From the NCBI RefSeq assembly GCF_001677475.2, contig NZ_CP015229.1: DNA of 64,000 nucleotides. One strand, 5' to 3'. A program made the translations under genes and the position numbers. Of the stretch, positions 5,584 to 36,311 are shown piece by piece (position 1 is the first letter of the stretch; every line of letters starts with the position of its first letter). This DNA is from Escherichia coli (GTDB lineage: Bacteria; Pseudomonadota; Gammaproteobacteria; Enterobacterales; Enterobacteriaceae). The notes under the pieces were generated by a model, which made no database searches, was not told where the DNA came from, and saw only the letters and a list, made by a program, of their open reading frames with translations.

Positions 5584-8845
<3,262 letters not shown>

Positions 8846-10101: not shown

Positions 10102-10181
10102 GAAAAGGCATTTACACAGAATCCTAAACAGGCTCTCCATTCCGGGAACGGCATCACCGCAAACTGCGCCGGAGGCAACCA

Positions 10182-10801: not shown

Positions 10802-11549
<748 letters not shown>

Positions 11550-17706: not shown

Positions 17707-18873
17707 GTGAGGTGTATTGTGGGAAAGGAACTGGATGATATCTGCACCAGCTGTCCGTATATCGATGCTGTAAAACGGCACAAACAACAGCTCGGTGCCA
17801 TAGAGGAATATACACAGTGGTTAAAAAAAGAACCACGGGCATCTTATTTTTTTCTGTTCCGGCTGTATACCCGCATTCACAATACATTTTTCCCCCAAAA
17901 GCAACAACTCCCGTTCACTCCCGGTGGCACTCACTGCCCGGAACCTGATGTCACCCTTCGGGACTTAACGCTTTCCCCGGGCTACCACAGTGATTATGCC
18001 CCTCACCCCATTCCGGAGATGGACAGTTCTATTGTTGTTCCCCCCACTAATGAAAACACCTCGCCTCCGGAAGATACTCCCGACAACACTCCGGCCGGAG
18101 GCAATACCGGACAAGCGGAAAAGACCAGAAACGCAGGACTCACACCCATTCCTGAAAAACGTTCAGGAATGCCCCCGGAACATCTGCGGTTTGCCATGGG
18201 TTTTCCATCGCAACCGAAGATTGCCGGTCCCAGAGAAAAGCCGATGCGCACCGTGCATCCGGATAATATCTACCGTGAAATTATATGGTTCTGCTCCAGT
18301 TACCTGCTGAAATCCGGACCAGAGGCTACGAGGACGATTATCAACTCAGTATTCTCTGAATGGGCCAGCATAAACAATGATTACCCCTCCCCCTTTTCGT
18401 GGGTGGACAGCAGGGACAGTGAACAGTGTGACTGGTTATGGAACGCCATGCAGGTCCGGTGTGTGGGAACCCCGCTGAATCCCCTTACCCCGGAGCAGAA
18501 ATACTGGTTCGCCTGCGCCACATTTGATAACTGGGAAGGCTGGAATGAGCAACAGGTACAGTTTTTACTGGAAAGTAATCCCAGACGAAACAGAGCGAAG
18601 TTTGCGATAAACTCCTTCCAGACTCTCGGGGTTAAACAGCATAAAGCAGTTCTTCTTGATGAACTGAAAAGTGCCCGGGAGCAACAAAAAAGGCGTGATG
18701 AACGTGCTGATGGTTCCGTCCCGCTGAAACTGTCCGGAAAAATCCACAAACAGCTTGAAAGTGTTGCCCGAAGTCGTGGTGTCCCCCCCAAAAAACTGCT
18801 GAATGAAATGATTGAGCAGGCGTACCGGGATTTGGTGGCAACCAGGCAGAACAGCCAGATCGATTCCAGATAA
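17707..18873 (+). CDS. Hypothetical protein with Pro/Thr-rich segment and C-terminal ribbon-helix-helix-like tail
   Basis: 388-codon ORF from GTG (first in-frame ATG at 18019); low-complexity PPTNENTSPPEDTPDNTP; C-terminal LKLSGKIHKQLESVARSRGVPPKKLLNEMIEQAY resembles an RHH/CopG-type motif. Confidence 0.4.
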   Translation: MRCIVGKELDDICTSCPYIDAVKRHKQQLGAIEEYTQWLKKEPRASYFFLFRLYTRIHNTFFPQKQQLPFTPGGTHCPEPDVTLRDLTLSPGYHSDYAPHPIPEMDSSIVVPPTNENTSPPEDTPDNTPAGGNTGQAEKTRNAGLTPIPEKRSGMPPEHLRFAMGFPSQPKIAGPREKPMRTVHPDNIYREIIWFCSSYLLKSGPEATRTIINSVFSEWASINNDYPSPFSWVDSRDSEQCDWLWNAMQVRCVGTPLNPLTPEQKYWFACATFDNWEGWNEQQVQFLLESNPRRNRAKFAINSFQTLGVKQHKAVLLDELKSAREQQKRRDERADGSVPLKLSGKIHKQLESVARSRGVPPKKLLNEMIEQAYRDLVATRQNSQIDSR

Positions 18874-18956
18874 TTTCAGACATATATTATCTCCGTGAAT
18901 CCCCCGCCACCTTTCCGGTGTGCGGGGTTTTGTCTTTTTTCACCGGGAATACATGT

Positions 18957-19829
18957 ATGAATCCGTCTGATGCCATTGAGGCAATTGAAAAACCACTTTC
19001 TTCCCTGCCTTACTCGCTTTCCCGTCACATCCTGGAACATCTGCGCAAACTCACCAGTCACGAACCCGTGATTGGCATTATGGGTAAAAGCGGGGCCGGT
19101 AAATCCTCACTCTGTAATGCGCTGTTTCAGGGGGAGGTCACACCGGTCAGTGATGTTCACGCCGGCACCCGGGAAGTGAAGCGTTTCCGTCTGAGTGGAC
19201 ACGGTCACAGCATGGTTATCACTGACCTGCCCGGGGTGGGCGAGAGCCGGGAGCGGGATGCAGAGTATGAAGCTCTGTACCGTGACATTCTGCCCGAACT
19301 GGACCTGGTACTGTGGCTGATTAAAACCGATGACCGTGCCCTGTCTGTGGATGAGTATTTCTGGCGACACATCCTGCACCGGGGACATCAGCAGGTGCTG
19401 TTTGTGGTGACGCAGGCCGATAAAACGGAGCCCTGCCATGAATGGGATATGGCCGGTATTCAGCCTTCTCCCGCACAGGCACAGAACATTCGCGAAAAAA
19501 CGGAGGCGGTATTCCGTCTGTTCCGGCCCGTACATCCGGTTGTGGCCGTATCGGCCCGCACCGGCTGGGAACTGGATACGCTGGTCAGTGCGCTCATGAC
19601 AGCGCTTCCCGACCATGCCGCCAGTCCCCTGATGACCCGCCTGCAGGACGAGCTGCGCACGGAATCTGTCCGCGCTCAGGCCCGTGAACAGTTTACCGGT
19701 GCGGTGGACCGGATATTTGACACGGCGGAGAGCGTCTGTATTGCCTCTGTTGCATGCACGGTTCTGCGTGCCGTCCGTGACACGGTGGTCTCTGTTGCCC
19801 GCGCTGTATGGAACTGGATTTTCTTCTGA
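18957..19829 (+). CDS. YeeP/YkfA/YfjP-family small GTPase
   Basis: P-loop GIMGKSGAGKSS, switch-like DLPGVGE and G4-like region; sits immediately upstream of the Ag43 gene as in CP4-44-type modules. Confidence 0.7.
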   Translation: MNPSDAIEAIEKPLSSLPYSLSRHILEHLRKLTSHEPVIGIMGKSGAGKSSLCNALFQGEVTPVSDVHAGTREVKRFRLSGHGHSMVITDLPGVGESRERDAEYEALYRDILPELDLVLWLIKTDDRALSVDEYFWRHILHRGHQQVLFVVTQADKTEPCHEWDMAGIQPSPAQAQNIREKTEAVFRLFRPVHPVVAVSARTGWELDTLVSALMTALPDHAASPLMTRLQDELRTESVRAQAREQFTGAVDRIFDTAESVCIASVACTVLRAVRDTVVSVARAVWNWIFF

Positions 19830-19988: not shown

Positions 19989-20201
19989 ATAGTGGTTAAT
20001 GGCCTGCGAAAAGGCAGCTGAATCTCTTCATCATGCAGAACGGAATTGCACACAACGGACTGATACTTCTCTGGCGGATGAGAGAGGGGAAGCATTTATG
20101 TCCGGGAAAAACCACTTTATCTGACCATGCTGTTTTGTACCTGCCGGTATCCACATTTGTGGGTACCGGCTTTTTTATTCACCCTCTGTAAGGAAAAGCT
20201 G

Positions 20202-23048
20202 ATGAAACGACATCTGAACACCAGCTACAGGCTGGTATGGAATCACATTACAGGCACCCTGGTGGTGGCTTCCGAACTGGCACGCTCACGGGGAAAAGGC
20301 GCCGGTGTGGCGGTTGCTCTGTCTCTTGCTGCTGTCACGTCAGTCCCGGCACTGGCTGCTGACACGGTTGTACAGGCGGGAGAAACCGTGAACGGCGGAA
20401 CACTGACAAATCATGACAACCAGATTGTCCTCGGTACGGCCAACGGAATGACCATCAGTACCGGTCTGGAGTATGGGCCGGATAACGAGGCCAATACCGG
20501 CGGGCAATGGATACAAAATGGCGGTATCGCCAACAACACTACTGTCACCGGTGGTGGTCTTCAGAGAGTGAATGCCGGAGGAAGCGTTTCAGACACGGTT
20601 ATCAGTGCCGGAGGCGGACAGAGCCTTCAGGGGCAGGCAGTGAACACCACTCTGAACGGCGGTGAGCAGTGGGTACATGAAGGCGGGATTGCAACGGGTA
20701 CCGTCATTAATGAGAAGGGCTGGCAGGCCGTCAAATCCGGCGCAATGGCAACCGACACGGTTGTGAATACCGGCGCGGAAGGGGGACCGGATGCAGAAAA
20801 TGGTGATACCGGGCAGTTTGTTCGCGGAAATGCCGTACGTACCACCATCAATAAAAATGGTCGTCAGATTGTGGCTGCTGAAGGAACGGCAAATACCACT
20901 GTGGTTTATGCCGGCGGCGACCAGACTGTACATGGTCACGCACTGGATACCACGCTGAATGGGGGGTACCTGTATGTGCACAACGGCGGTACGGCGTCTG
21001 GCACTGTTGTAAACAGTGACGGCTGGCAGATTATCAAGGAAGGTGGTCTGGCGGATTTCACCACCGTTAACCAGAAAGGCAAACTGCAGGTGAACGCCGG
21101 TGGTACAGCCACGAATGTCACCCTGACGCAGGGAGGCGCACTGGTCACCAGTACGGCGGCAACCGTCACCGGCAGCAACCGTCTGGGCAATTTCACTGTG
21201 GAAAACGGTAATGCTGACGGTGTTGTTCTGGAGTCCGGTGGTCGCCTGGATGTACTGGAGGGCCATTCAGCGCAGAAAACATTGGTGGATGACGGCGCTA
21301 TCCTGGCAGTGTCTGCCGGTGGTAAGGCAACAGATGTCACCATGACATCCGGTGGTGCCCTGATTGCAGACAGTGGTGCCACTGTTGAGGGGACCAATGC
21401 CAGCGGTAAGTTCAGTATTGATGGCATATCCGGTCAGGCCAGCGGCCTGCTGCTGGAAAATGGCGGCAGCTTTACGGTTAATGCCGGGGGACAGGCTGGC
21501 AACACCACTGTCGGACATCGTGGAACACTGACGCTGGCTGCCGGGGGAAGTCTGAGTGGAAGAACACAGCTCAGTAAAGGCGCCAGTATGGTACTGAATG
21601 GTGATGTGGTCAGTACCGGCGATATTGTTAACGCAGGAGAGATTCACTTTGATAATCAGACGACACAGGATGCCGTACTGAGCCGTGCTGTTGCAAAAGG
21701 CGACTCCCCGGTAACGTTCCATAAACTGACCACCAGTAACCTCACCGGTCAGGGTGGCACCATCAATATGCGTGTTCGCCTTGATGGCAGCAATGCCTCT
21801 GACCAGCTGGTGATTAATGGTGGTCAGGCAACCGGCAAAACCTGGCTTGCGTTTACAAATGTCGGAAACAGTAACCTCGGGGTGGCAACCTCCGGACAGG
21901 GTATCCGGGTTGTGGATGCACAGAATGGTGCCACCACAGAAGAAGGTGCGTTTGCCCTGAGTCGCCCGCTTCAGGCCGGCGCCTTTAACTACACCCTGAA
22001 CCGTGACAGCGATGAAGACTGGTACCTGCGCAGTGAAAATGCTTATCGTGCTGAAGTCCCCCTGTATGCCTCCATGCTGACACAGGCAATGGACTATGAC
22101 CGGATTCTGGCAGGCTCCCGCAGCCATCAGACTGGTGTAAGCGGTGAAAATAACAGCGTCCGTCTCAGCATTCAGGGCGGTCATCTCTGTCACGATAACA
22201 ACGGCGGTATTGCCCGTGGAGCCACGCCGGAAAGCAGCGGCAGCTATGGCTTCGTCCGTCTGGAGGGTGACCTGCTCAGAACAGAGGTTGCCGGTATGTC
22301 TCTGACGACAGGGGTGTATGGTGCTGCAGGCCATTCTTCCGTTGATGTTAAGGATGATGACGGCTCCCGTGCCGGCACGGTCCGGGATGATGCCGACAGT
22401 CTGGGCGGATACCTGAATCTGGTACACACGTCCTCCGGCCTGTGGGCTGACATTGTGGCACAGGGAACCCGCCACAGCATGAAAGCGTCATCGGACAATA
22501 ACGACTTCCGCGCCCGGGGCTGGGGCTGGCTGGGCTCACTGGAAACTGGTCTGCCCTTCAGTATCACTGACAACCTGATGCTGGAGCCACAACTGCAGTA
22601 CACCTGGCAGGGGCTCTCCCTGGATGACGGCCAGGATAACGCCGGTTATGTGAAGTTCGGGCATGGCAGTGCACAACATGTGCGTGCCGGCTTCCGTCTG
22701 GGCAGCCACAACGATATGACCTTTGGCGAAGGCACCTCATCCCGTGACACTCTGCGCGACAGTGCAAAACACCGTGTGAGTGAACTGCCGGTGAACTGGT
22801 GGGTACAGCCTTCTGTTATCCGCACTTTCAGCTCCCGGGGTGACATGAGCATGGGTACAGCCGCAGCCGGCAGTAACATGACGTTCTCACCCTCACAGAA
22901 TGGCACATCACTGGACCTGCAGGCCGGACTGGAAGCCCGTGTCCGGGAAAATATCACCCTGGGCGTTCAGGCCGGTTATGCCCACAGTGTCAGCGGCAAC
23001 AGCGCTGAAGGCTATAACGGTCAGGCCACGCTGAATGTGACCTTCTGA
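20202..23048 (+). CDS. flu: Antigen 43 self-associating autotransporter
   Basis: MKRHLNTSYRLVWNHITGTLVVASELARSRGKGAGVAVALSLAAVTSVPALAADTVV N-terminus, repetitive beta-helical passenger, C-terminal beta-barrel ending ...GYNGQATLNVTF; 948 aa from the ATG at 20202. Confidence 0.9.
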   Translation: MKRHLNTSYRLVWNHITGTLVVASELARSRGKGAGVAVALSLAAVTSVPALAADTVVQAGETVNGGTLTNHDNQIVLGTANGMTISTGLEYGPDNEANTGGQWIQNGGIANNTTVTGGGLQRVNAGGSVSDTVISAGGGQSLQGQAVNTTLNGGEQWVHEGGIATGTVINEKGWQAVKSGAMATDTVVNTGAEGGPDAENGDTGQFVRGNAVRTTINKNGRQIVAAEGTANTTVVYAGGDQTVHGHALDTTLNGGYLYVHNGGTASGTVVNSDGWQIIKEGGLADFTTVNQKGKLQVNAGGTATNVTLTQGGALVTSTAATVTGSNRLGNFTVENGNADGVVLESGGRLDVLEGHSAQKTLVDDGAILAVSAGGKATDVTMTSGGALIADSGATVEGTNASGKFSIDGISGQASGLLLENGGSFTVNAGGQAGNTTVGHRGTLTLAAGGSLSGRTQLSKGASMVLNGDVVSTGDIVNAGEIHFDNQTTQDAVLSRAVAKGDSPVTFHKLTTSNLTGQGGTINMRVRLDGSNASDQLVINGGQATGKTWLAFTNVGNSNLGVATSGQGIRVVDAQNGATTEEGAFALSRPLQAGAFNYTLNRDSDEDWYLRSENAYRAEVPLYASMLTQAMDYDRILAGSRSHQTGVSGENNSVRLSIQGGHLCHDNNGGIARGATPESSGSYGFVRLEGDLLRTEVAGMSLTTGVYGAAGHSSVDVKDDDGSRAGTVRDDADSLGGYLNLVHTSSGLWADIVAQGTRHSMKASSDNNDFRARGWGWLGSLETGLPFSITDNLMLEPQLQYTWQGLSLDDGQDNAGYVKFGHGSAQHVRAGFRLGSHNDMTFGEGTSSRDTLRDSAKHRVSELPVNWWVQPSVIRTFSSRGDMSMGTAAAGSNMTFSPSQNGTSLDLQAGLEARVRENITLGVQAGYAHSVSGNSAEGYNGQATLNVTF

Positions 23049-23168
23049 CAGAACCATCGCCTCTTTGTGGTCCCGGTCATCATGATCGGGACCCGGACCG
23101 GCGCAACGGATATTCAACGCCACATTCGCTGGCATTAACAATAACATGATATTCATCACGGAGTGACT

Positions 23169-25685
23169 ATGTTACAGATAGTCGGCGCGCTGATCCTGCT
23201 GATAGCAGGATTTGCCATTCTTCGCCTTTTGTTCAGAGCATTAATCAGCACGGCTTCTGTGCTGGCAGGGCTTATATTGCTGTGTCTGTTCGGCCCGGCC
23301 TTACTGGCTGGCTATATCACCGAACGCATAACACGGTTGTTCCATATTCGCTGGCTGGCAGGCGTATTTCTGACGATTGCCGGAATGATCATCAGCTTCA
23401 TGTGGGGACTTGATGGTAAACATATCGCGCTGGAGGCTCACACCTTTGACTCTGTGAAATTTATTCTGACCACCGCTCTCGCCGGTGGTCTGCTGGCTGT
23501 TCCCCTGCAGATCAAAAACATTCAGCAGAACGGGATCACACCAGAAGATATCAGCAAGGAAATTAACGGGTATTACTGCTGTTTTTATACTGCCTTTTTC
23601 CTTATGGCATGTTCTGCATGCGCACCATTGATCGCGTTACAGTACGATATTTCACCGTCACTGATGTGGTGGGGCGGGTTGTTGTACTGGCTGGCTGCAT
23701 TAGTGACGCTGCTATGGGCGGCCAGCCAAATCCAGGCGCTGAAAAAACTGACCTGTGCCATCAGCCAGACACTGGAAGAACAACCGGTGCTCAACAGTAA
23801 ATCGTGGCTGACCAGTTTGCAAAACGATTACAGCCTTCCTGACTCACTGACGGAGCGCATCTGGCTGACGCTCATTTCTCAACGGATTTCCCGGGGAGAG
23901 CTGAGGGAATTTGAACTGGCAGACGGAAACTGGTTACTGAACAATGCCTGGTATGAAAGAAACATGGCAGGTTTTAACGAACAGTTGAAAGAGAACCTGT
24001 CATTCACACCTGATGAACTGAAAACGCTCTTCCGGAACCGCCTGAATTTATCACCGGAAGCGAATGACGATTTTCTCGATCGTTGCCTGGACGGCGGTGA
24101 CTGGTATCCCTTTTCAGAAGGTCGCCGTTTTGTATCATTCCATCACGTGGATGAGCTTCGTATCTGTGCCTCCTGCGGGCTGACAGAAGTACATCATGCC
24201 CCGGAAAATCATAAGCCGGATCCGGAATGGTACTGCTCCTCTCTTTGTCGCGAAACAGAAACACTGTGTCAGGAAATTTATGAACGCCCTTACAACTGTT
24301 TTATTTCCGATGCAACGGCGAATGGTCTGATTCTCATGAAACTGCCGGAAACCTGGAGTACAAATGAGAAAATGTTTGCTTCCGGAGGGCAGGGACATGG
24401 GTTTGCCGCTGAACGGGGAAACCATATTGTCGACAGAGTCCGTCTGAAAAACGCACGGATCCTCGGTGATAATAATGCCAGAAATGGAGCAGACAGACTG
24501 GTCAGCGGAACAGAAATCCAGACGAAATATTGTTCAACTGCAGCCCGTAGCGTCGGTGCGGCATTCGACGGACAAAACGGACAGTATCGTTACATGGGAA
24601 ATAATGGCCCCATGCAACTGGAAGTCCCCCGTGATCAGTATGCCGGCGCTGTTGAAACCATGAGGAATAAGATCCGCGAAGGTAAAGTACCCGGTGTAAC
24701 CGATCCCGCAGAAGCGTCCCGGCTGATTCGTCGGGGACATCTGACTTATACTCAGGCCCGTAATATCACCCGGTTCGGGACCATCGAATCGGTCACTTAT
24801 GATATTGCCGAGGGTTCGGTTGTCAGTCTGGCGGCCGGAGGGATCAGTTTTGCACTGACGGCATCGGTCTTCTGGCTCAGCACCAGCGATCGCGATGCAG
24901 CCCTGCAGACAGCTGCTGTCCAGGCAGGAAAAACCTTCACCCGCACACTGGCTGTCTACATCACAACCCAGCAACTCCACCGGCTCAGTGTTGTTCAGGG
25001 TATGCTGAAGCACATTGATTTTTCGACTGCCAGCCCGACTGTCCGACTGGCTCTTCAGAAGGGGACCGGTGCAGGAAATATCAGTGCCCTGAACAAAGTA
25101 ATGAAGGGTACGCTGGTGACATCTCTGGCACTGGTAGCTGTCACAACCGGCCCTGACATGATCAAAATGTTGCGGGGACGGATCTCCGGTGCGCAGTTCA
25201 TCAGGAATCTTGCCGTGGCATCTTCCGGTGTGGCAGGTGGTGCTGTCGGGTCAGTGGCGGGCGGAATACTGTTCAGTCCACTGGGACCATTTGGTGCACT
25301 GACAGGGCGTGTGGTTGGCGGTGTTCTGGGGGGAATGATTGCCTCCGCTGTATCAGGAAAAATTGCCGGAGCGCTGGTTGAAGAAGATCGCGTCAAAATT
25401 CTGGCAATGATTCAGGAGCAGGTGACATGGCTTGCCGGCAGTTTCCTGCTGACCGGACATGAGATTGAAAATCTGAACGAGAATCTGGCCCGTGTTATCG
25501 ATCAGAATGCTCTGGAGATCATTTTCGCCGCCGGTATACAACAACGGGCCGCGACCAATATGTTAATCAAACCACTGGTGGTCAGTATCATCAGGCAACG
25601 CCCCGTCATGGAATATGATGCATCCCATCTCGGCAATATGGTTAACCGACTGGAAGAAGCATTACCCCCGGAGTTACCGGCATAA
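23169..25685 (+). CDS. YeeR-like inner-membrane protein (uncharacterised)
   Basis: About 838 aa; several N-terminal hydrophobic helices, central Cys cluster CASCGLTEVHH...YCSSLC, Gly-rich C-terminal helices (GVAGGAVGSVAGGILF...VVGGVLGGMIASAVSG); position right after flu as for yeeR. Confidence 0.5.
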   Translation: MLQIVGALILLIAGFAILRLLFRALISTASVLAGLILLCLFGPALLAGYITERITRLFHIRWLAGVFLTIAGMIISFMWGLDGKHIALEAHTFDSVKFILTTALAGGLLAVPLQIKNIQQNGITPEDISKEINGYYCCFYTAFFLMACSACAPLIALQYDISPSLMWWGGLLYWLAALVTLLWAASQIQALKKLTCAISQTLEEQPVLNSKSWLTSLQNDYSLPDSLTERIWLTLISQRISRGELREFELADGNWLLNNAWYERNMAGFNEQLKENLSFTPDELKTLFRNRLNLSPEANDDFLDRCLDGGDWYPFSEGRRFVSFHHVDELRICASCGLTEVHHAPENHKPDPEWYCSSLCRETETLCQEIYERPYNCFISDATANGLILMKLPETWSTNEKMFASGGQGHGFAAERGNHIVDRVRLKNARILGDNNARNGADRLVSGTEIQTKYCSTAARSVGAAFDGQNGQYRYMGNNGPMQLEVPRDQYAGAVETMRNKIREGKVPGVTDPAEASRLIRRGHLTYTQARNITRFGTIESVTYDIAEGSVVSLAAGGISFALTASVFWLSTSDRDAALQTAAVQAGKTFTRTLAVYITTQQLHRLSVVQGMLKHIDFSTASPTVRLALQKGTGAGNISALNKVMKGTLVTSLALVAVTTGPDMIKMLRGRISGAQFIRNLAVASSGVAGGAVGSVAGGILFSPLGPFGALTGRVVGGVLGGMIASAVSGKIAGALVEEDRVKILAMIQEQVTWLAGSFLLTGHEIENLNENLARVIDQNALEIIFAAGIQQRAATNMLIKPLVVSIIRQRPVMEYDASHLGNMVNRLEEALPPELPA

Positions 25686-25760
25686 CGGCTATTCTGCGCC
25701 TTTTACGTTTTATCACCTGATTTGTCAGTGTCATCGTCATGACTCAGAGAGGTAAATACC

Positions 25761-26216
25761 ATGATTCACCTGTTCAAAACCTGCATGATTACCGCCTTCA
25801 TTCTGGGGTTAACGTGGTCTGCCCCACTCCGGGCACAGGATCAACGTTACATCAGTATACGCAATACAGATACGATATGGCTCCCGGGAAATATTTGTGC
25901 TTACCAGTTCCGGCTGGATAATGGCGGAAACGATGAAGGATTTGGCCCCCTCACCATCACTCTGCAACTCAAAGACAAATATGGTCAGACGCTGGTGACC
26001 AGAAAAATGGAAACGGAAGCTTTTGGTGACAGTAATGCCACGCGAACCACAGACGCATTTCTGGAAACGGAGTGCGTGGAAAATATCGCCACAACCGAAA
26101 TCATTAAAGCAACTGAAGAAAGTAACGGCCATCGTGTCAGTCTGCCGTTATCGGTTTTCGATCCCCAGGACTACCATCCACTGCTAATTACCGTTTCCGG
26201 AAAAAACGTTAACTGA
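25761..26216 (+). CDS. Secreted hypothetical protein
   Basis: 151 aa with signal-peptide-like MIHLFKTCMITAFILGLTWSAPLRA; RBS AGAGAGG upstream. Confidence 0.45.
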   Translation: MIHLFKTCMITAFILGLTWSAPLRAQDQRYISIRNTDTIWLPGNICAYQFRLDNGGNDEGFGPLTITLQLKDKYGQTLVTRKMETEAFGDSNATRTTDAFLETECVENIATTEIIKATEESNGHRVSLPLSVFDPQDYHPLLITVSGKNVN

Positions 26217-26294
26217 TCCCTGAACTCAGTTTCATGCTTCAGCCTCTGTCACAACGCGTGGCAGAGGCTTTTTATTTATCAGGAGAAAACAGAT

Positions 26295-26528
26295 ATGCCG
26301 GGTTACACAGAGTATGTTCTGGCTGAAGGATCTTTCTCATACGGGCAGGCGGTTGCTGTCATAACAGCTTACCGCAATGTGTTTATCCAGAATGACCCGG
26401 GAATGCATTTCCGTTGGGTTATCCGCAACGCGGAAGGTCAGCGACGCTGGAGCTACCGGAATTCTGAACCCGATGCCGGAAAGGTGCTTAATACGCAGCT
26501 CGCCAGTGACGGTCTTCTCAGACAATAA
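26295..26528 (+). CDS. DUF905-type small protein (YkfF-like)
   Basis: 77 aa [30 protein letters not shown]...; AGGAG RBS; typical member of this island module as recalled. Confidence 0.5.
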
Positions 26529-26627
26529 ACGTCATTCATTTCACCCATCAGGCCGCGTCTTCTCCGGGAGACGTGGCTTTTTCATTTATTACACCAGTAA
26601 ATCTTAACCACCGATAAGGAGCAAATT

Positions 26628-27446
26628 ATGCGACTAGCCAGTCGTTTTGGTTATGCGAACCAGATACGCCGTGACCGTCCGCTGACACACGAAGAACTGA
26701 TGCACTATGTTCCCGGTATTTTCGGTGAAGACCGGCATACTTCCCGCAGTAAACGATATGCGTACATTCCCACTATCACCGTACTGGAAAGCCTGCAGCA
26801 GGAAGGTTTTCAGCCATTCTTCGCCTGCCAGACCCGCGTGCGCGACCCGGGCCGCCGGGGATACACCAAACACATGCTGCGTCTGCGCCGTGACGGGGAG
26901 ATAAACGGACAACATGTCCCTGAAATCATCCTGCTGAACTCCCATGACGGTACCTCCAGCTACCAGATGCTGCCGGGTTACTTCAGGTTCGTCTGCCAGA
27001 ACGGATGCGTCTGTGGTCAGTCTCTGGGGGAAGTGCGTGTTCCACACCGGGGAAATGTAGTGGAGAAAGTTATCGAAGGGGCTTACGAGGTGGTGGGCGT
27101 GTTTGACCGGATAGAGGAGAAGCGTGATGCCATGCAGTCTCTGGTTCTGCCGCCACCGGCACGCCAGGCGCTGGCACAGGCGGCACTGACTTACCGTTAT
27201 GGTGACGAACATCAGCCGGTCACCACCGCTGACATTCTGACACCACGACGCAGGGAGGATTACGGTAAGGACCTGTGGAGCGCATATCAGACCATCCAGG
27301 AGAATATGCTGAAAGGCGGAATTTCCGGTCGCAGTGCCAGAGGAAAACGTATCCACACCCGTGCCATTCACAGCATCGACACGGACATTAAGCTCAATCG
27401 CGCATTGTGGGTGATGGCAGAAACACTGCTGAAGAGTATGCGCTGA
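26628..27446 (+). CDS. DUF932-type protein (YafZ/YfjQ-like)
   Basis: 272 aa; family resemblance to YafZ/YfjQ from cryptic-prophage modules, from memory. Confidence 0.55.
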   Translation: MRLASRFGYANQIRRDRPLTHEELMHYVPGIFGEDRHTSRSKRYAYIPTITVLESLQQEGFQPFFACQTRVRDPGRRGYTKHMLRLRRDGEINGQHVPEIILLNSHDGTSSYQMLPGYFRFVCQNGCVCGQSLGEVRVPHRGNVVEKVIEGAYEVVGVFDRIEEKRDAMQSLVLPPPARQALAQAALTYRYGDEHQPVTTADILTPRRREDYGKDLWSAYQTIQENMLKGGISGRSARGKRIHTRAIHSIDTDIKLNRALWVMAETLLKSMR

Positions 27447-27536
27447 TGCCTTTTCCCTGAAAGCGCAGTTCTGACTCATGTCCGTCCCTGCCCCGCGACT
27501 TCTTCCATTCATTTACTTTTTATAAGGAATAATCTC

Positions 27537-28022
27537 ATGACAACCGTTTCGCATAATTCCACCACACCTTCTGTTTCCGTAACCGCTGTATCAGAGAATA
27601 ACCCGCCTCAACTGGTTGCCACCCTCGTCCCTGATGAACAGCGCATCAGCTTCTGGCCGCAGCACTTTGGCCTCATTCCACAGTGGGTGACCCTGGAGCC
27701 CCGTGTCTTCGGCTGGATGGACCGTCTGTGCGAAGACTACTGCGGTGGTATCTGGAATCTGTACACCCTGAACAACGGCGGGGCATTTATGGCACCCGAA
27801 CCGGATGACGATGATGACGAAGCATGGGTACTGTTCAATGCCATGAACGGTAACCGCGCTGAAATGAGCCCGGAAGCCGCCGGCATTGCTGCCTGTCTGA
27901 TGACGTACAGTCATCATGCCTGTCGTACGGAGAATTATGCCATGACAGTTCATTATTACCGGCTGCGGGATTACGCCCTGCAGCATCCGGAATGCAGCGC
28001 CATTATGCGCATCATCGACTGA
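27537..28022 (+). CDS. Antirestriction protein (KlcA/ArdB-like; YfjX/YafX type)
   Basis: 161 aa with acidic stretch PEPDDDDDEAW and conserved position immediately upstream of the RadC-like gene. Confidence 0.6.
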   Translation: MTTVSHNSTTPSVSVTAVSENNPPQLVATLVPDEQRISFWPQHFGLIPQWVTLEPRVFGWMDRLCEDYCGGIWNLYTLNNGGAFMAPEPDDDDDEAWVLFNAMNGNRAEMSPEAAGIAACLMTYSHHACRTENYAMTVHYYRLRDYALQHPECSAIMRIID

Positions 28023-28037
28023 ATGGAGGCAGGGACA

Positions 28038-28514
28038 ATGCAGCAGCTTTCCTTTCTGCCCGGAGAGATGACGCCCGGCGAGCGCAGTCTCATTCTGCGG
28101 GCCCTGAAAACCCTGGACCGCCATCTTCATGAACCCGGCGTGGCCTTCACCTCCACCCGTGCAGCACGGGAATGGCTGATTCTGAACATGGCGGGACTGG
28201 AGCGTGAAGAGTTCCGGGTGCTGTATCTGAACAACCAGAATCAGCTGATTGCCGGTGAAACCCTCTTCACCGGCACCATCAACCGCACGGAAGTCCATCC
28301 CCAGGAAGTGATTAAACGCGCCCTGTATCACAATGCCGCTGCTGTGGTGCTGGCACACAATCACCCGTCCGGTGAAGTCACCCCCAGCAAGGCAGACCGC
28401 CTTATCACGGAACGTCTGGTACAGGCACTGGGCCTGGTGGATATCCGGGTGCCGGACCATCTGATAGTCGGTGGCAGCCAGGTTTTCTCCTTTGCCGAAC
28501 ACGGTCTGCTTTAA
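28038..28514 (+). CDS. RadC-like JAB/MPN-domain protein (YeeS/YfjY/YkfG type)
   Basis: JAMM-like motif HNHPSGEVTPSKAD; GGAGG RBS 8 nt upstream of the ATG at 28038. Confidence 0.7.
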   Translation: MQQLSFLPGEMTPGERSLILRALKTLDRHLHEPGVAFTSTRAAREWLILNMAGLEREEFRVLYLNNQNQLIAGETLFTGTINRTEVHPQEVIKRALYHNAAAVVLAHNHPSGEVTPSKADRLITERLVQALGLVDIRVPDHLIVGGSQVFSFAEHGLL

Positions 28515-31615: not shown

Positions 31616-32152
31616 TTACCCCCCTCCAAATTCCAGCCGCTGCACATTCACCATCCCTGGCTTCTCACCTACGCTGACATCAATTTGTGTCACCCGCAGC
31701 GCATATTTTTCATCCAGTGCGTTTAACCATTTCAGCAGGTCATTAAACACCACAGGTTCTATCCAGACCTGAATATTCTCCCCACGCTCGGCTATCCGCT
31801 TGATGACCACCGAGTGCGCGGAAGCACTGTCACTGATGACCCGCGATACCTGCGCAGGCGTTGTTGTGGCAGATTTTCGCGCTGCAATAATATCCGGCGC
31901 GGCGCTCTTCAGTCGCGCGTTCATCGCCACCAGCTGCTGCAACATCGTCTCCTGTTGTTCTATCCGTTCGCTCAACGGCTGCCAGATGAGGACGCAATAT
32001 CCGGCGCTAAACAGGAACACCACCGCTGCCAGTAACATGCCCTTTTCACGCGGAGAACGCCCCGCCAGGTGTTGTGTCAGCCAGTGTTCGCCACGGCTTA
32101 ACTGGCGTTCACGCCATTGCTGAAAATAGTGAATAAATTTATCGCGTAACAT
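31616..32152 (-). CDS. gspM: Type II secretion system protein M
   Basis: 178 aa, single N-terminal TM helix; last gene of the gsp operon. Confidence 0.75.
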   Translation of the reverse strand: MLRDKFIHYFQQWRERQLSRGEHWLTQHLAGRSPREKGMLLAAVVFLFSAGYCVLIWQPLSERIEQQETMLQQLVAMNARLKSAAPDIIAARKSATTTPAQVSRVISDSASAHSVVIKRIAERGENIQVWIEPVVFNDLLKWLNALDEKYALRVTQIDVSVGEKPGMVNVQRLEFGGG

Positions 32153-32156
32153 GTTA

Positions 32157-33332
32157 TTACCTCCGCAACGTTACGCCGCCGGAAACCGCATCACCCTCTT
32201 TCTGTAACGCGTCCTGTTGCACAACATAATCTGCCGCCAGTGCGCTACGCAGTTTGTCGAAACTGGCAAAGTTCGCGGCCCGCAACTGAAGGTGGAGCGT
32301 CTGGCGTTTTTGATCAAAGGTGAAACCACGCATTTCGATGTCGGAAAGTGATGCTGATTTCAGGGTGCTGGCTATCGCTGACAACTCAGCGAGCAGCCGG
32401 GTATCGTCGGCCTGTGGGCGATATTTTTTCAGCGCCATCGTCACCTGAGAGCGTAAATTCACAATCCGCTTCTGCTCCGGGAATAGCGTTAAGAACTGTT
32501 TCTCCGCCTGGGTGCGGCTTTGCGCCACCTGTTCGCTGACGCTCCATAACGTCACGCCCCGTTCCACTACCAGCGCAACCAGAATCAGCAATATCGGCAG
32601 AATCATCACCCGCCAGCGCGCCCACTGTTTTCGGTAGCTGACGCGAGGCTGCCACTGGCCGCTTAGCAAGTTCCCTTCTGGTTCTCCGAATGTGGTAATG
32701 GCTGGCAGTGCCGTGATTGTCAGGCGTTCTGCGTCCGCATCAGCCCATGTAGATAGCTCTTCCGGCGCAATACCGACCACGGTCAACGAAAGCGGTAAAT
32801 CCTGCTCATTGAGCTGTGCGCGTAACATGACCGGAGCCAGCGCCCGCCCGGCGCTCCATCCCCGGCACTCATTGATGCGGCAGATAACTCGTTGCGCATC
32901 GCCAGCCATATAGCCACAAGGAATGGACATCCAGTCCGGCGCGACGGTAGCGCGGGTGATGCCGTTTTCCTGCAACCACTGCGCAATGTTGCGCATATGC
33001 TGCTGGTGAATCACTGCCACGGTTGCCAGTTGCTGGTCGATTTTCAACGGCGCAAAATGCAGTTCGTCGATATCCTGGTTCAGTTCTTCTTCCAGTAAGG
33101 CGGGCAGAATAGTGGGTATCTCCTTACGGAGGACATCAGGCAGTTCAACCTGCCAGACGCTGATCCATTCGCCGGGAATGTAGAGTCGAATCGCATCGGT
33201 TTGCAGCCATTGCTGAAGCTGTTCGTTGTCGACGTCAGGCCAGATACCGCACTCCACGTCGGCGGTACGGCGCTGCCAGCGGATGGGGTCGGTGGCGCAA
33301 AGCGGGAAAAAAATCTCAAGCATGGAACTCAC
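32157..33332 (-). CDS. gspL: Type II secretion system protein L
   Basis: 391 aa; operon position between gspK and gspM. Confidence 0.75.
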   Translation of the reverse strand: MSSMLEIFFPLCATDPIRWQRRTADVECGIWPDVDNEQLQQWLQTDAIRLYIPGEWISVWQVELPDVLRKEIPTILPALLEEELNQDIDELHFAPLKIDQQLATVAVIHQQHMRNIAQWLQENGITRATVAPDWMSIPCGYMAGDAQRVICRINECRGWSAGRALAPVMLRAQLNEQDLPLSLTVVGIAPEELSTWADADAERLTITALPAITTFGEPEGNLLSGQWQPRVSYRKQWARWRVMILPILLILVALVVERGVTLWSVSEQVAQSRTQAEKQFLTLFPEQKRIVNLRSQVTMALKKYRPQADDTRLLAELSAIASTLKSASLSDIEMRGFTFDQKRQTLHLQLRAANFASFDKLRSALAADYVVQQDALQKEGDAVSGGVTLRR

Positions 33333-34306
33333 TCACTTTCTCCTGTCTGATGCCAGAGAACCGAAAAGTGTTGTGGCCCCATGCGGACAATTAACGAGTT
33401 CATCGTCAGTTCAATCTCATTCACGGTGATATCCGAACGCAGCCAGAAGTAATTGCTGTCCACGCTCAGGACGGTTTTTAGCTGTTTTTTAGTACGCTCA
33501 TCGACGTCAGCAAGTAGCGGCTGCGCAAGAAACTGATCGACATCTTCCCACCCCTTCGCCGGACGTTGTTGTAATAACGCCCGCGCCTGAACAGGGCTTA
33601 ACCACGGGTCAAACAGTGCTTCAAGAATCACACTTTGCGCAACGTCCAGGGTATTGATGTTGATTTGCTGGCGGGTCATCGGCAGCGCACAGACCAGCGG
33701 TTTCAGTTTTTGATAAAGCCCGGCGTCCATTCCCTGCACCACTCGCATCTCGCTGATATCAGCTAACGGTTGATTAGCGGCGTAGAACGGCACCGAGCGG
33801 GCGAGATACTCGCTGTCTTCACGCCCCAGACGCGTCTGCACGCTGCGGTCTTCATCAATAAACTCCCACAGGCTTTCGGCTATCAGTTCGGCCCGATAAG
33901 CAGGCACATCCAGGCGCGAGATCAGGGCAATCAGTTGTTGTACCGCGATAGGACGCGACGCCGTCGTCGGCTGAGCGAGGGCATTCAGGTTAAAGCAGGC
34001 CTGTGCGTCGCGCAGGGTGACGGCAATTTGCCCCTGCGGCAGTGGGAAGAAACGAGGGCCGGATGCCCACGGCTGTGCCAGATGCACGCGTTGTTCATTT
34101 TTCAGGCTCAGACTGAGTGCGCTCAACGCCAGGCTTTCTGCACTGGCGCTGTACCACAGCGCCTGCTGGTACTCCTGCTGGCTGCGCGTTCGCCCAAGTT
34201 GTTGCTGCATCCGCCCGGAAAGCGTGATGGTTACCAGCATCATAACCGCCAGCAATATCAGCACCACAACCAGTGCCATTCCGCGTTTTGGTGGTGAGGT
34301 GATCAT
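33329..34306 (-). CDS. gspK: Type II secretion minor pseudopilin K
   Basis: 325 aa with N-terminal hydrophobic helix; overlaps gspJ stop. Confidence 0.75.
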   Translation of the reverse strand: MITSPPKRGMALVVVLILLAVMMLVTITLSGRMQQQLGRTRSQQEYQQALWYSASAESLALSALSLSLKNEQRVHLAQPWASGPRFFPLPQGQIAVTLRDAQACFNLNALAQPTTASRPIAVQQLIALISRLDVPAYRAELIAESLWEFIDEDRSVQTRLGREDSEYLARSVPFYAANQPLADISEMRVVQGMDAGLYQKLKPLVCALPMTRQQININTLDVAQSVILEALFDPWLSPVQARALLQQRPAKGWEDVDQFLAQPLLADVDERTKKQLKTVLSVDSNYFWLRSDITVNEIELTMNSLIVRMGPQHFSVLWHQTGESE

Positions 34307-34908
34307 GATAATTGCGGCCCGCGTAACAACCAGATGCGTTCAATCTCGCCCCATTGCGGCGAATGCAGAGTCATGCGCACTGCCACAGGGATCGCCTGCA
34401 CTGATGACCAGCTCTCCTGCCAGCGCGTGCCGTCGTAGAACTGCAAACGGAGCGAATCTGCCGGGATTAATTTTTGCGTTGTTGGCTTCACGCTGCCTGC
34501 TGCATCGGTCAGCGGCCAGGCTAACCGTTCGAGATAACCGTCATGAATGCGGTAACCAACGGTGAGCAGATTACTGCGCGGCAGGCGCATCAACGGATTA
34601 ACCACACCGCCACGCACAAAGCGCATCCCTTCACTCTCAGACGCCAGCACGCCAGCGCCAGCCAGTAACGCCGGTTCCCGCTGGCCCTGATCGCCTCTTA
34701 CCGGGCGTGGCATCATTTGTGTCAGATCGTGGGTCAGAAAACTCATCGTTTGCTGCATGAGGTTTAGTTTTTGATCGTGTCCGGCGACGGCGCTATTCAC
34801 GCGCGTGACGCCGTTTGTCACCTGCTGCGCCATCAGCGCCAGTGAGGCAAAAATGGCGATTGCCACCAGCATTTCCAGTAACGTTAAACCAGCGTGGGTC
34901 CTTTTCAC
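34303..34908 (-). CDS. gspJ: Type II secretion minor pseudopilin J
   Basis: Prepilin-type N-terminus MKRTHAGLTLLEMLVAIA. Confidence 0.8.
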   Translation of the reverse strand: MKRTHAGLTLLEMLVAIAIFASLALMAQQVTNGVTRVNSAVAGHDQKLNLMQQTMSFLTHDLTQMMPRPVRGDQGQREPALLAGAGVLASESEGMRFVRGGVVNPLMRLPRSNLLTVGYRIHDGYLERLAWPLTDAAGSVKPTTQKLIPADSLRLQFYDGTRWQESWSSVQAIPVAVRMTLHSPQWGEIERIWLLRGPQLS

Positions 34909-35276
34909 TGTTGGCCTCCCACGGCGCTAAACCAGGCGCGTCGTGACTGAATCACCGGCGAAAAATCTTCGTGACGGCTGACTTCAATATCCACCGCCTG
35001 GAGCAGCGCGTTACCGGTATTCAGCGGTGTGGTTCGCCAGTACCAGCGGCTTCCTGCCATATCGCTCTCGCCCTGGTGCCTGACCGCCCGTTGTTCGCGG
35101 GTCATCAGGTAGAGTAGAGCGGTCTGGTTTTCAGCTACCCAGCCCGCTACTGTTTTCTCCTCAAGAACTTGCTGATTACTCAGCGCACCGCTGGCAATCT
35201 GTAACACTGCCGTGGCAGCCAGCGCAAAAATCGCCAGCGCGAGCATCACTTCCAGCAACGTAAATCCGCGCTTCAT
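34905..35276 (-). CDS. gspI: Type II secretion minor pseudopilin I
   Basis: Prepilin-type N-terminus MKRGFTLLEVMLALAIF. Confidence 0.8.
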   Translation of the reverse strand: MKRGFTLLEVMLALAIFALAATAVLQIASGALSNQQVLEEKTVAGWVAENQTALLYLMTREQRAVRHQGESDMAGSRWYWRTTPLNTGNALLQAVDIEVSRHEDFSPVIQSRRAWFSAVGGQQ

Positions 35277-35836
35277 GGCATCCTCTCATCACATTGATTG
35301 AGGGATAACGCGCCATCGTGCGCCAGTTTTACCGCCCAACATGCGTTTTGCACCGCCGAGTAAAAGCGCAGCGTAAACGGCGTGGCGGGTTCAAAAGGCG
35401 AAAAACGGATCTGCGGCGTCTTCTTTTTCGCCTCTTTTTGCAGCTCCAGTTCAATATCATGCAGCGTCAGGCGACGACGTTGCAGCTCCAGCGCATACTC
35501 TTTCTGCCAGATATCACTTCCGGGTTGTAACAGCATCTGCACCTGTTTCGACACCGTAACCTGTGCCGATAACCGGGTCGCAGAAACGGGCAACCACTGC
35601 CCCTGACGACGTTGCATAAACTGGTAGCCAGGTGGGTCGATTAGCACACCGAGTGTTTTCCCTTCGATCACTGCCCTGTCCTTAAACTGCGCAAAGCGAG
35701 TCAGAAAATCCTGCGCCGCTTTTTTCGCAGGCGATTCAGAATCGGTCGCAAAAGTCTGTACCACGCCCACACTGGCAAGGCCGATAAGGAAAATCACCAG
35801 CATGATTTCCAGAAGAGTGAATCCGCGTCCAGGCAC
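35273..35836 (-). CDS. gspH: Type II secretion minor pseudopilin H
   Basis: Prepilin-type N-terminus GRGFTLLEIMLVIF. Confidence 0.8.
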   Translation of the reverse strand: MPGRGFTLLEIMLVIFLIGLASVGVVQTFATDSESPAKKAAQDFLTRFAQFKDRAVIEGKTLGVLIDPPGYQFMQRRQGQWLPVSATRLSAQVTVSKQVQMLLQPGSDIWQKEYALELQRRRLTLHDIELELQKEAKKKTPQIRFSPFEPATPFTLRFYSAVQNACWAVKLAHDGALSLNQCDERMP

Positions 35837-35839
35837 TGA

Positions 35840-36295: not shown

Positions 36296-36311
36296 GTGAT
36301 AACTCCGTAAA

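What the first reader, a model, noticed from the sequence alone, without database searches (positions are those of the whole stretch)
23169..25685. Large YeeR-like membrane protein with Cys cluster and glycine-zipper C-terminus
About 838 aa, larger than the roughly 510-aa K-12 YeeR I recall. It has N-terminal transmembrane helices, a central CxxC...C-x3-C cluster (CASCGLTEVHH...YCSSLC) and a Gly-rich amphipathic C-terminal region (GVAGGAVGSVAGGILF, VVGGVLGGMIASAVSG) typical of glycine-zipper membrane insertions. Function unknown; always linked to Ag43 in this module.
Basis: seen in the sequence. Interest (0 to 1): 0.3.

Follow-up and report, generated by a model that had tools for sequence, protein, structure and literature searches.

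The report
Full-length YeeR, membrane nuclease-like protein
This is the intact 838-residue form of the uncharacterised E. coli island gene yeeR (K-12 keeps only a deletion stump); its best-conserved part looks like a restriction-enzyme-type nuclease tied to the inner membrane, and its relatives sit among phage-defence genes, which gives a testable function for a long-unexplained gene.

Summary
The ORF is real. It runs 23169-25685 (+) and encodes 838 aa, with a GGAG ribosome-binding site. It is under purifying selection (dN/dS 0.19), and the same about 830-aa architecture is kept across Gamma- and Betaproteobacteria, so it is not a fusion artefact. K-12 YeeR (510 aa) is the truncated form: a roughly 3.4-kb deletion joins codon 507 to yeeS. 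This was already published.

Residues 400-815 form a module (Pfam YeeR_C) found in 1,200 protein clusters across many phyla. There it is fused or adjacent to Sel1/TPR proteins and often follows WYL regulators. It lies next to restriction, viperin, Dnd, DRT, BREX and DarTG genes, and it is remotely related to the PADLOC candidate PDC-M09B.

"Always linked to Ag43" is false.

My best reading is a membrane-anchored nuclease acting against invading DNA. This is inferred, not shown.

The parts
23169..25685 (+). yeeR coding sequence, 838 codons plus stop
   Evidence: ORF list and translation. RBS GGAG at 23160-23163. Same CDS length in RefSeq E. coli. dN/dS 0.19 against a 96.5%-identical allele.
23169..23735 (+). 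N-terminal membrane domain, aa 1-189, about six hydrophobic helices. Specific to the full-length YeeR subfamily.
   Evidence: Hydropathy segments 4-22, 36-54, 63-81, 95-113, 139-157 and 164-188. Model helices at pLDDT 79-94. Absent from most YeeR_C relatives.
23781..24158 (+). Two winged-helix-like domains, aa 205-330, predicted cytoplasmic
24159..24284 (+). Cys cluster, aa 331-372: C333-x2-C336-x19-C356-x3-C360, plus C367. Probable zinc ribbon.
   Evidence: All five Cys invariant in 42 homologues. A beta-hairpin followed by a helix in the model. No Pfam match.
24369..24812 (+). PD-(D/E)xK (restriction-endonuclease-like) domain, aa 401-548. Candidate catalytic codons: E415 (24411-24413), D442 (24492-24494), Q451 (24519-24521), K453 (24525-24527).
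24813..25211 (+). Hydrophobic helix (aa 550-568) and basic amphipathic helices (aa 575-668). Part of the YeeR_C module.
   Evidence: Hydropathy peak at 550-568; residues 569-714 hold 14 K/R against 4 D/E. Model helices. Conserved across the YeeR_C family.
25212..25379 (+). Glycine-zipper segment, aa 682-737
   Evidence: Invariant G694, G698, G713, G717 and G721. Small-xxx-small repeats. Sub-threshold Pfam hits to Gly-zipper_Omp (E 0.008) and C19orf12. Model pLDDT below 50 here.
25380..25682 (+). C-terminal helical domain, aa 738-838
   Evidence: Model helices 739-831. Invariant L761, E765, P802 and R811.
24690..28061 (+). Stretch missing in E. coli K-12. Its loss creates the 510-aa K-12 YeeR and removes irmA, DUF905, DUF932, the antirestriction gene and the start of yeeS.
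   Evidence: Megablast coverage 1-1521 only. K-12 annotation. Junction alignment. Stated in PMC6480617 and PMC4807369.
20202..23048 (+). Ag43/Cah autotransporter gene upstream (ORF opens at 20127). Context only, not a functional partner.
   Evidence: NCBIfam auto_Ag43 1970 bits, aligned from residue 26. Co-transcription of agn43-yeeR-irmA shown in EC958 (PMC4807369).
25761..26216 (+). irmA downstream. Context only.
   Evidence: Pfam IrmA E 1.6e-37. IrmA is secreted without YeeR.

Best explanation
YeeR is an inner-membrane protein whose working parts face the cytoplasm. These parts are two winged-helix-like domains, a Cys4/5 zinc ribbon and a PD-(D/E)xK-type nuclease domain (E415, D442, Q451-x-K453). 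The nuclease domain is held at the membrane between the N-terminal helix bundle and a C-terminal hydrophobic, glycine-zipper region. The nuclease-plus-membrane half (YeeR_C) is an ancient, mobile module.

I propose that it is an anti-invader effector: a nuclease kept at the membrane, away from the chromosome, that cuts DNA entering the cell from a phage or a plasmid. The variable N-terminal parts or Sel1/TPR partners would set when and on what it acts. The glycine-zipper region would anchor and oligomerise it.

In this window it is cargo of a CP4-type integrative island. It is transcribed from the phase-variable agn43 promoter by position, not because it serves Ag43.

Shown: the gene is intact, the residues are conserved, the fold is similar, and the genomic associations exist.

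Inferred: cytoplasmic orientation, nuclease activity, the defence role and its target.
For: - **Motif.** D442 sits just before core strand 2 and Q451-x-K453 sits in strand 3. These are the canonical positions described in PMC3424549. The residues are invariant in 42, 48 and 25-sequence alignments.
- **Module.** 1,200 representative clusters match, most of them only over residues 400-815, with Sel1, TPR or beta-helix extensions.
- **Operon partners.** A Sel1 protein lies directly downstream in 8 loci and a WYL-WCX regulator upstream in 9.
- **Neighbourhood.** Among 148 genes within two positions in 37 dereplicated loci there are strong PADLOC hits to type I, II and IV restriction enzymes, DndF, viperin, DRT, PDC-M27C, PDC-S01, PbeA and mad8. 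One relative sits inside a BREX locus beside DarTG. Another lies beside TIR and HicAB genes. Another is in an island with BrxE, GIY-YIG and PLD genes.
- **Cassettes on mobile elements.** An IS6-flanked WYL-YeeR_C cassette lies on a Lactococcus conjugative plasmid.
- **Precedent.** SNIPE is a membrane-anchored nuclease that cuts phage DNA during injection.
Against: - No experiment supports any step.
- The acidic residue of the (D/E)xK triad is Gln, so the domain could bind rather than cut.
- The defence-neighbour count has no matched random control.
- Some homologues sit among ordinary genes, for example Dyella between a GGDEF gene and a TonB receptor gene.
- Topology after residue 549 is unclear. 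The basic 569-714 stretch argues against a simple transmembrane pass, and the model is poor at 700-737.
- About 30% of E. coli genomes that carry the gene have only truncated copies, so selection on it is not strong everywhere.
Confidence: 0.42

Rival explanations
1. Abortive-infection pore. The glycine-zipper and hydrophobic C-terminal half is the effector and permeabilises the inner membrane. The nuclease-like, winged-helix and zinc-ribbon domains only sense foreign nucleic acid.
For: Invariant glycine-zipper residues. Sub-threshold matches to glycine-zipper families and to the membrane parts of LeoB/LeoBC. PDC-M09A resembles the membrane half alone. The defence-island context is the same as for the main model.
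Against: E415, D442, Q451 and K453 are invariant over the whole family. That fits catalysis better than mere binding. The zipper segments are only weakly hydrophobic and poorly modelled.
Confidence: 0.17
2. A housekeeping or competition function of the integrative island itself. Examples are processing or excluding DNA during island transfer, or countering host defences, alongside the DUF932, antirestriction and RadC-like genes.
For: In E. coli, Serratia and Enterobacter the gene lies in CP4-type islands with GTPase, DUF932, antirestriction, JAB/RadC and CbtA/CbeA genes. Nucleic-acid-type domains are present.
Against: Full-length homologues in six other genera stand alone with none of these island genes. 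Firmicute relatives have quite different partners. K-12 and many E. coli lost it while keeping the rest of the island.
Confidence: 0.15
3. An accessory factor for Ag43 or IrmA (export, anchoring or regulation), as the shared operon suggests.
For: agn43-yeeR-irmA are co-transcribed and OxyR-repressed in EC958 and CFT073 (PMC4807369). No terminator is predicted between agn43 and yeeR.
Confidence: 0.06
4. A metal- or redox-sensing membrane protein. The Cys cluster has TRASH-like spacing, and the operon is under OxyR.
Against: No Pfam match to TRASH or related fingers. The Cys cluster is absent from most of the YeeR_C family, whose conserved core is the nuclease-like domain. The PerR match has rmsd 10.8.
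Confidence: 0.05
5. The long ORF is an artefact: two genes fused, or a decaying pseudogene.
For: Truncated copies are common in E. coli.
Against: The architecture of about 820-850 aa is collinear in dozens of genera. dN/dS is 0.12-0.32 in all four regions. 1,800 of 5,426 E. coli genomes hold a copy covering at least 80% of the query.
Confidence: 0.01

Closest known systems
E. coli K-12 YeeR (b2001, CP4-44 prophage, 510 aa, 'inner membrane protein YeeR')
   Same: Same gene. Nt 1-1521 are 99.4% identical and it sits in the same position after agn43.
   Different: K-12 is a deletion remnant that ends at residue 507, inside the nuclease-like domain. It lacks the membrane, glycine-zipper and C-terminal regions. 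The truncation was already reported (PMC6480617, PMC4807369).
Pfam PF27347 YeeR_C family
   Same: The 99%-identical cluster representative and all listed homologues carry this precomputed domain. It corresponds to residues ~400-815.
   Different: It is a family name only, with no function attached. The local Pfam copy lacks the model.
PDC-M09 (PADLOC candidate defence system, proteins A and B)
   Different: It is not the same family. YeeR scores 22 bits against PDC-M09B where true members score over 700, and BLASTP is not significant. PDC-M09AB occurs without YeeR in Aeromonas and Vibrio. This window has no PDC-M09A next to yeeR. PDC-M09 is itself unvalidated.
PD-(D/E)xK nucleases (Hjc, NucS, Mrr-like AF1548, type II restriction enzymes, CdiA-CT, HamA)
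   Same: Core fold and placement of the Asp and x-K residues.
   Different: There is no detectable sequence relationship. Gln replaces the strand-3 acid. The domain is embedded between membrane regions.
SNIPE (membrane-bound anti-phage nuclease; bioRxiv 10.1101/2025.11.03.685801)
   Same: Working analogy: a nuclease and a DNA-binding domain held on the cytoplasmic face of the inner membrane, which spares the chromosome and cuts injected DNA.
   Different: SNIPE has one transmembrane helix, DUF4041 and a GIY-YIG nuclease. YeeR has about six N-terminal helices, winged helices, a zinc ribbon, a PD-(D/E)xK-like domain and a glycine-zipper region. There is no homology.

Membership tests
YeeR / Pfam YeeR_C (PF27347) | Match to the family model | tested here: met
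   Precomputed PF27347 on the 99%-identical representative P0001 and on nearly all homologues; it is named YeeR_C. The local Pfam copy has no such model.
YeeR / Pfam YeeR_C (PF27347) | Full-length architecture: membrane N-terminus, Cys cluster, YeeR_C | tested here: met
   Collinear alignment of 42 proteins, with 805-882 aa listed for those found.
PD-(D/E)xK nuclease superfamily | alpha-beta-beta-beta-alpha-beta core fold | tested here: met
   [not shown]
PD-(D/E)xK nuclease superfamily | Asp at the start of strand 2 and (D/E)-x-K in strand 3 | tested here: inconclusive
   D442 and K453 are invariant and correctly placed, but the acid is Gln451. Invariant E415 (helix 1) or E485 (strand 4) could substitute, as in the migrated-acid variants of PMC3424549.
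PD-(D/E)xK nuclease superfamily | Sequence-profile match to a known member family | tested here: not met
   No Pfam, NCBIfam or PDB sequence hit, even at E=10.
PD-(D/E)xK nuclease superfamily | Metal-dependent phosphodiester cleavage | not testable with these tools
   Needs purified protein.
Glycine-zipper membrane domains (Pfam Gly-zipper_Omp PF13488, Rick_17kDa_Anti PF05433) | Repeated G-xxx-G on two hydrophobic helices | tested here: met
   Repeats at 682-734 and invariant Gly residues.
Glycine-zipper membrane domains (Pfam Gly-zipper_Omp PF13488, Rick_17kDa_Anti PF05433) | Score above the Pfam gathering threshold | tested here: not met
   Gly-zipper_Omp 16.5 bits against 25; Rick_17kDa_Anti 8.7 against 24.2.
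TRASH / FCS-type zinc finger | C-x2-C-x19-22-C-x3-C spacing (pattern recalled from memory) | tested here: met
   C333-x2-C336-x19-C356-x3-C360, invariant.
TRASH / FCS-type zinc finger | Profile match | tested here: not met
   No Pfam family for residues 191-400 at E up to 10.
PDC-M09 candidate defence system | Strong match to the PDC-M09B model | tested here: not met
   22.4 bits, E 9e-6, partial, against 704-710 bits for true members. hhalign probability 36%.
PDC-M09 candidate defence system | Adjacent PDC-M09A partner | tested here: not met
   [not shown]
Ag43 operon accessory protein | Co-occurrence with Ag43 wherever the gene occurs | tested here: not met
   [not shown]

The most novel reading that the evidence does not exclude
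YeeR_C defines a widespread, unstudied class of membrane-embedded PD-(D/E)xK nucleases that defend cells at the point of DNA entry. The glycine-zipper region, which weakly resembles phage tape-measure segments (phrog_167, E 0.0016), would engage the injection or conjugation channel. In pathogenic E. coli this defence would be switched on and off together with Ag43 by the OxyR/Dam phase switch, so that aggregating cells are also the protected ones.
Probability: 0.2. Interest if true: 0.7.

Novelty: new variant of a known kind. Interest (0 to 1): 0.45.

Why it matters
yeeR is present at full length in about a third of complete E. coli genomes. It lies in the agn43-irmA operon of uropathogenic strains, yet every paper found calls it uncharacterised. 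Work in K-12 cannot reveal its function, because K-12 has only a stump.

A specific prediction turns an old 'y-gene' into a bench experiment. The prediction is a cytoplasm-facing nuclease-like domain with four named residues, held at the membrane, in a family that keeps company with defence genes. It also points to a module of 1,200 protein clusters across many phyla.

If the defence role holds, it would add a second, unrelated example of the membrane-tethered-nuclease strategy recently shown for SNIPE. It would also link phase-variable adhesion to phage or plasmid resistance.

Tried and rejected
- **Family libraries.** Pfam, NCBIfam and PDB sequence searches with the whole protein, its fragments and a 48-sequence domain profile gave nothing usable. 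The L7Ae and Hsp70 hits at E 0.1-1.6 are chance.
- **Whole-model Foldseek against PDB.** No hit had E below 0.2.
- **AFDB50 fold library.** Unavailable.
- **PHROGs tape-measure hit** (E 0.0016) and **LeoB/LeoBC hits** (E 5e-5 to 2e-4). Both fall on Gly/Ala-rich hydrophobic sequence, so I treat them as compositional leads only.
- **BLASTP of YeeR against PDC-M09B.** Not significant. The relationship rests on HMM and profile matches and on the shared motif.
- **Obligate YeeR-PDC-M09 system.** Considered and rejected, because Aeromonas and Vibrio carry PDC-M09AB without YeeR.
- **Small conserved neighbours of the Firmicute relatives.** The proteins of 109-127 aa and of 114-157 aa gave no family or PDB match.
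- **Literature.** Searches for PDC-M09, YeeR_C and yeeR together with defence found nothing relevant.
- **Gln variant.** I could not confirm from the held papers my recollection that Tn7 TnsA uses a D...Q-x-K variant.
- **GTG at 23163 as start.** Rejected, because it overlaps the GGAG ribosome-binding site.
Full report
**1. The observation**

The window holds one uninterrupted reading frame ending at 25685. Translated from the ATG at 23169 it gives 838 residues. That ATG lies five bases after a GGAG (23160-23163). The GTG at 23163, which the mechanical ORF list offers as the start, overlaps this ribosome-binding site. RefSeq annotates the same 2517-base gene in other E. coli as 'hypothetical protein' or 'YeeR family protein'.

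- Six hydrophobic segments lie between residues 4 and 188.
- The motif CASCG...YCSSLC is present at C333/C336/C356/C360.
- A Gly-rich stretch runs from 682 to 737, with overlapping small-xxx-small repeats.

These features are not chance. In an alignment of 42 homologues sharing 29-67% identity with the query, C333, C336, C356, C360 and C367 are invariant. So are G694, G698, G713, G717 and G721.

**2. Why it is larger than K-12 YeeR**

Megablast against 5,426 complete E. coli genomes finds the gene in 2,582 of them, and 1,800 hold a copy covering at least 80% of the query. K-12 strains match only bases 1-1521, at 99.4%. In K-12 the yeeR CDS overlaps yeeS by four bases.

A three-way alignment shows K-12 following this window up to about 24689 and then continuing at about 28062, inside the 5' end of yeeS. 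K-12 therefore carries a deletion of roughly 3.4 kb. The deletion removed YeeR residues 508-838, irmA, DUF905, DUF932, the antirestriction gene and the start of yeeS.

[quoted passage not shown] A second decay class, which keeps only bases 1388-2517, also exists.

**3. Not a fusion artefact**

Full-length proteins of about 805-882 aa, collinear from the first membrane helix to the C-terminus, occur in these genera:
- Serratia
- Methylomonas
- Pseudomonas
- Shewanella
- Dyella
- Herbaspirillum
- Cupriavidus
- Deefgea
- Stenotrophomonas

Between this allele and a 96.5%-identical E. coli allele there are 55 synonymous and 33 non-synonymous changes. Overall dN/dS is 0.19, and it is 0.12-0.32 in each of four regions.

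**4.

The most conserved block is residues 405-560. Its consensus is GGQGHGFAAExANxxxDR...GADRLVxGxxIQTKY...PMQLEVPKDQY.

An AlphaFold model of residues 395-565, built from 48 diverse sequences, has mean pLDDT 86. Its elements run helix, strand, strand, strand, helix, strand.

- CdiA-CT
- an XisH-like protein
- N.BspD6I and R.BspD6I
- AF1548
- NgoMIV
- Hjc and Hje
- NucS
- YaeQ
- PaqCI
- FokI
- VRR-NUC
- influenza PA endonuclease
- HamA
- I-Ssp6803I

The canonical active site is an Asp at the start of the second core strand, plus Glu-x-Lys in the third (PMC3424549). Here D442 immediately precedes strand 443-445, and Q451-T-K453 lies in and just after strand 448-452. E415 lies on the first helix. 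All four residues are invariant in three alignments that together span the family.

The acid of the triad is Gln. The review cited describes active families in which the acid has moved to a neighbouring element, and invariant E415 or E485 could play that part. I also recall a D...Q-x-K variant in Tn7 TnsA, but I could not verify it here.

No sequence profile connects the domain to any known nuclease family. The claim therefore rests on fold and motif. I put it at about 0.75.

**5. The rest of the protein**

The full-length model has mean pLDDT 78.
- *The Cys cluster* forms a hairpin followed by a helix. Its spacing, C-x2-C-x19-C-x3-C, is that of TRASH/FCS-type fingers as I recall them, but there is no profile match.
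- *After the nuclease-like domain* come a hydrophobic helix (550-568), basic amphipathic helices (14 K/R against 4 D/E in residues 569-714), the glycine zipper and a helical C-terminal domain.
- *The zipper* reaches only sub-threshold Pfam scores: Gly-zipper_Omp E 0.008 at 16.5 bits, and C19orf12 E 0.008. It is modelled with pLDDT below 50.

With six N-terminal helices, and with the positive charges placed as they are, residues 190-548 should face the cytoplasm. A zinc ribbon and a nuclease both require this. It is an inference.

**6. A mobile module**

An exhaustive HMMER search of 1.84 billion representatives finds 1,200 clusters at E of 0.001 or better. Only some tens of the 150 best hits listed align over the whole protein. 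Most of the rest match residues ~400-815 only. This is the unit Pfam calls YeeR_C.

These shorter relatives carry other extensions: Sel1 repeats (P0149, P0171, P0195), TPR repeats (P0226) or a beta-helix-like region (P0178).

A scan of one genome per species found 233 loci. They come from Proteobacteria, Clostridia, Bacilli, Negativicutes, Lentisphaerae, Riflebacteria, Spirochaetes, Acidobacteria and Campylobacter.

The module is rare in viruses and plasmids:

| Collection | Result |
|---|---|
| Phage records | 1 of 50,697 |
| IMG/VR | 6 loci |
| Plasmid collection | 11 of 72,556 records, several of them megabase-sized and probably chromosomes |

**7. Genomic company**

'Always linked to Ag43' is wrong. 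Full-length homologues stand alone in the following settings:

| Organism | Neighbours |
|---|---|
| Pseudomonas | RES-Xre toxin-antitoxin pair |
| Methylomonas | HicAB, a TIR protein, IS66 |
| Dyella | A GGDEF gene and a TonB receptor gene |
| Deefgea | HepT/MNT pairs, IS21 |
| Herbaspirillum | Integrase-bounded island with BrxE, GIY-YIG and PLD genes |
| Stenotrophomonas | IS elements |
| Serratia | CP4-like island with IrmA but no Ag43 |

Among the shorter relatives, clustering of neighbours shows two recurring partners:
- A Sel1-repeat protein directly downstream, often overlapping, in 8 loci. This echoes the Sel1 fusions.
- A WYL-WCX regulator upstream in 9 loci.

A Lactococcus conjugative plasmid carries an IS6-flanked cassette of WYL, YeeR_C and a hypothetical gene. 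One relative sits between PglZ and DarTG/PglX in a BREX locus.

I then scanned the 148 genes within two positions of the module in 37 dereplicated loci. They include strong PADLOC matches:
- PDC-M27C
- type I, II and IV restriction enzymes
- DndF
- viperin
- PDC-S01
- a DRT reverse transcriptase-helicase
- PbeA (two genes)
- mad8 (two genes)

That is roughly 15 genes, or 10%. From general knowledge I would expect about 1% of genes to be defence genes. I had no matched control, so this is semi-quantitative.

**8. Relation to PDC-M09**

YeeR hits the PADLOC model PDC-M09B weakly: E 9e-6 over residues 410-552. Shorter relatives hit it over most of its length, for example P0216 at E 4.9e-13.

A profile-profile comparison of 25 YeeR_C sequences with 25 PDC-M09B sequences gives probability 36% and E 3.8e-4. 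It aligns ADRLVxGxxIQTKY...EVPxDQY with aDYlIDGvxVQSKF...hIPKDtW. The same D-x8-Q-x-K spacing is invariant in both families.

I read this as remote homology, not membership. True PDC-M09B proteins score over 700 bits, and BLASTP between the two is not significant. PDC-M09AB occurs without YeeR in an Aeromonas island and in a Vibrio prophage, so YeeR is not an obligate third component.

**9. How it most likely works**

The conserved unit is a nuclease-like domain with intact catalytic-type residues, welded to a membrane-associated region. The variable parts are repeat domains and nucleic-acid-type domains. The regulators are of the WYL kind, and the neighbours are defence genes.

This pattern fits an anti-invader effector. 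The closest worked example of the logic is SNIPE, a membrane-anchored nuclease. SNIPE spares the chromosome because it is tethered, it cuts phage DNA during injection, and it becomes toxic when the anchor is removed.

I therefore commit to a membrane-tethered nuclease acting on entering DNA (0.42). The main alternative is an abortive-infection pore in which the nuclease-like domain is the sensor (0.17).

An island-maintenance role (0.15) is weakened by the stand-alone homologues. An Ag43 or IrmA accessory role (0.06) is weakened by the published finding that IrmA is secreted without YeeR, and by the lack of Ag43 linkage elsewhere.

In this window the gene sits in a CP4-type island inserted beside the yghD-gsp secretion operon. 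By analogy with EC958 and CFT073, it is probably transcribed from the OxyR/Dam phase-variable agn43 promoter. No terminator is predicted in the 120-base spacer.

**10. Novelty and verdict**

The following were known:
- the gene
- its K-12 truncation
- its operon
- its Pfam family name

I did not find any of these in the held literature:
- the restriction-endonuclease-like domain
- the tandem winged helices
- the breadth of the YeeR_C module
- its Sel1 and WYL partners
- its defence-island company
- its tie to PDC-M09B

I rate the finding a new variant of a known kind, namely membrane-associated nuclease-type immunity. Interest is moderate: the finding is ordinary as a gene call, but it yields a concrete, testable function for a common and long-unexplained E. 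coli gene.

Noticed in passing
window 2217-11281: A dense pile of insertion-sequence genes and fragments: IS21 istA/istB twice (2217-4468 on +, 5584-7271 on -), an ISL3 fragment (4622-5482), IS3 (7540-8845), an IS256/Mutator transposase (9007-10101) and an IS110 fragment (10784-11281).
   Followed up: partly
window 20127-23048: The Ag43 ORF opens at 20127, but the NCBIfam Ag43/Cah model aligns only from residue 26 and the RefSeq homologue is 948 aa. The true start is therefore probably near 20202. This is the shorter Cah-type allele, not the 1039-aa K-12 form.
   Followed up: partly
window 18918-19829: The island's small GTPase (YeeP-like, MMR_HSR1) gives weak PADLOC hits to the dynamin-like LeoBC and LeoA proteins (E 1e-8 and 2e-5). 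Weak LeoB/LeoBC hits also fall on the membrane half of some YeeR_C relatives and on PDC-M09A.
   Followed up: no
window 17707-18873: A 388-aa ORF just upstream of the GTPase has no significant match in Pfam, NCBIfam, PADLOC or PHROGs. A similar 'hypothetical protein' is annotated at this position in E. coli EC43.
   Followed up: no
window 23069-23093: An imperfect inverted repeat (GGTCCCGGTCA...TGATCGGGACC) lies in the agn43-yeeR spacer. It has no T-run and no terminator was predicted. Its role, if any, is unknown.
   Followed up: no
window 31616-48149: The island ends beside the yghD-gspM..E type II secretion operon and a 1525-aa ORF (43572-48149), probably yghJ/sslE from its position in the locus (not annotated here). 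No tRNA gene is present anywhere in the window, so the integration site itself is not in view.
   Followed up: partly
[not shown]
   Followed up: no
L101 6143-8431: The PDC-M09A/B candidate defence pair sits in a Vibrio parahaemolyticus prophage next to the Q antiterminator and NinG genes, a typical moron position. In Aeromonas (L099) the pair sits in a CP4-like element.
   Followed up: partly
L104 5997-7130: A second decay class of yeeR occurs in E. coli: a 5'-truncated pseudogene that keeps only bases 1388-2517 directly after agn43. Roughly 30% of E. coli genomes with any yeeR sequence have no copy covering 80% of the gene.
   Followed up: partly
L107 4401-6353: The only phage record with a YeeR_C gene is a 75-kb Oscillospirales phage. 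It carries the gene between the endolysin and a DNA invertase/recombinase, the usual place for lysogeny-associated cargo.
   Followed up: no
L035, L046, L054 and others (neighbours of Firmicute YeeR_C genes): Two families of small unknown proteins recur directly beside short YeeR_C genes on the same strand. One, of 109-127 aa, lies upstream in 7 loci. The other, of 114-157 aa, lies downstream in 7 loci. Neither has a Pfam, PADLOC or PDB match.
   Followed up: partly
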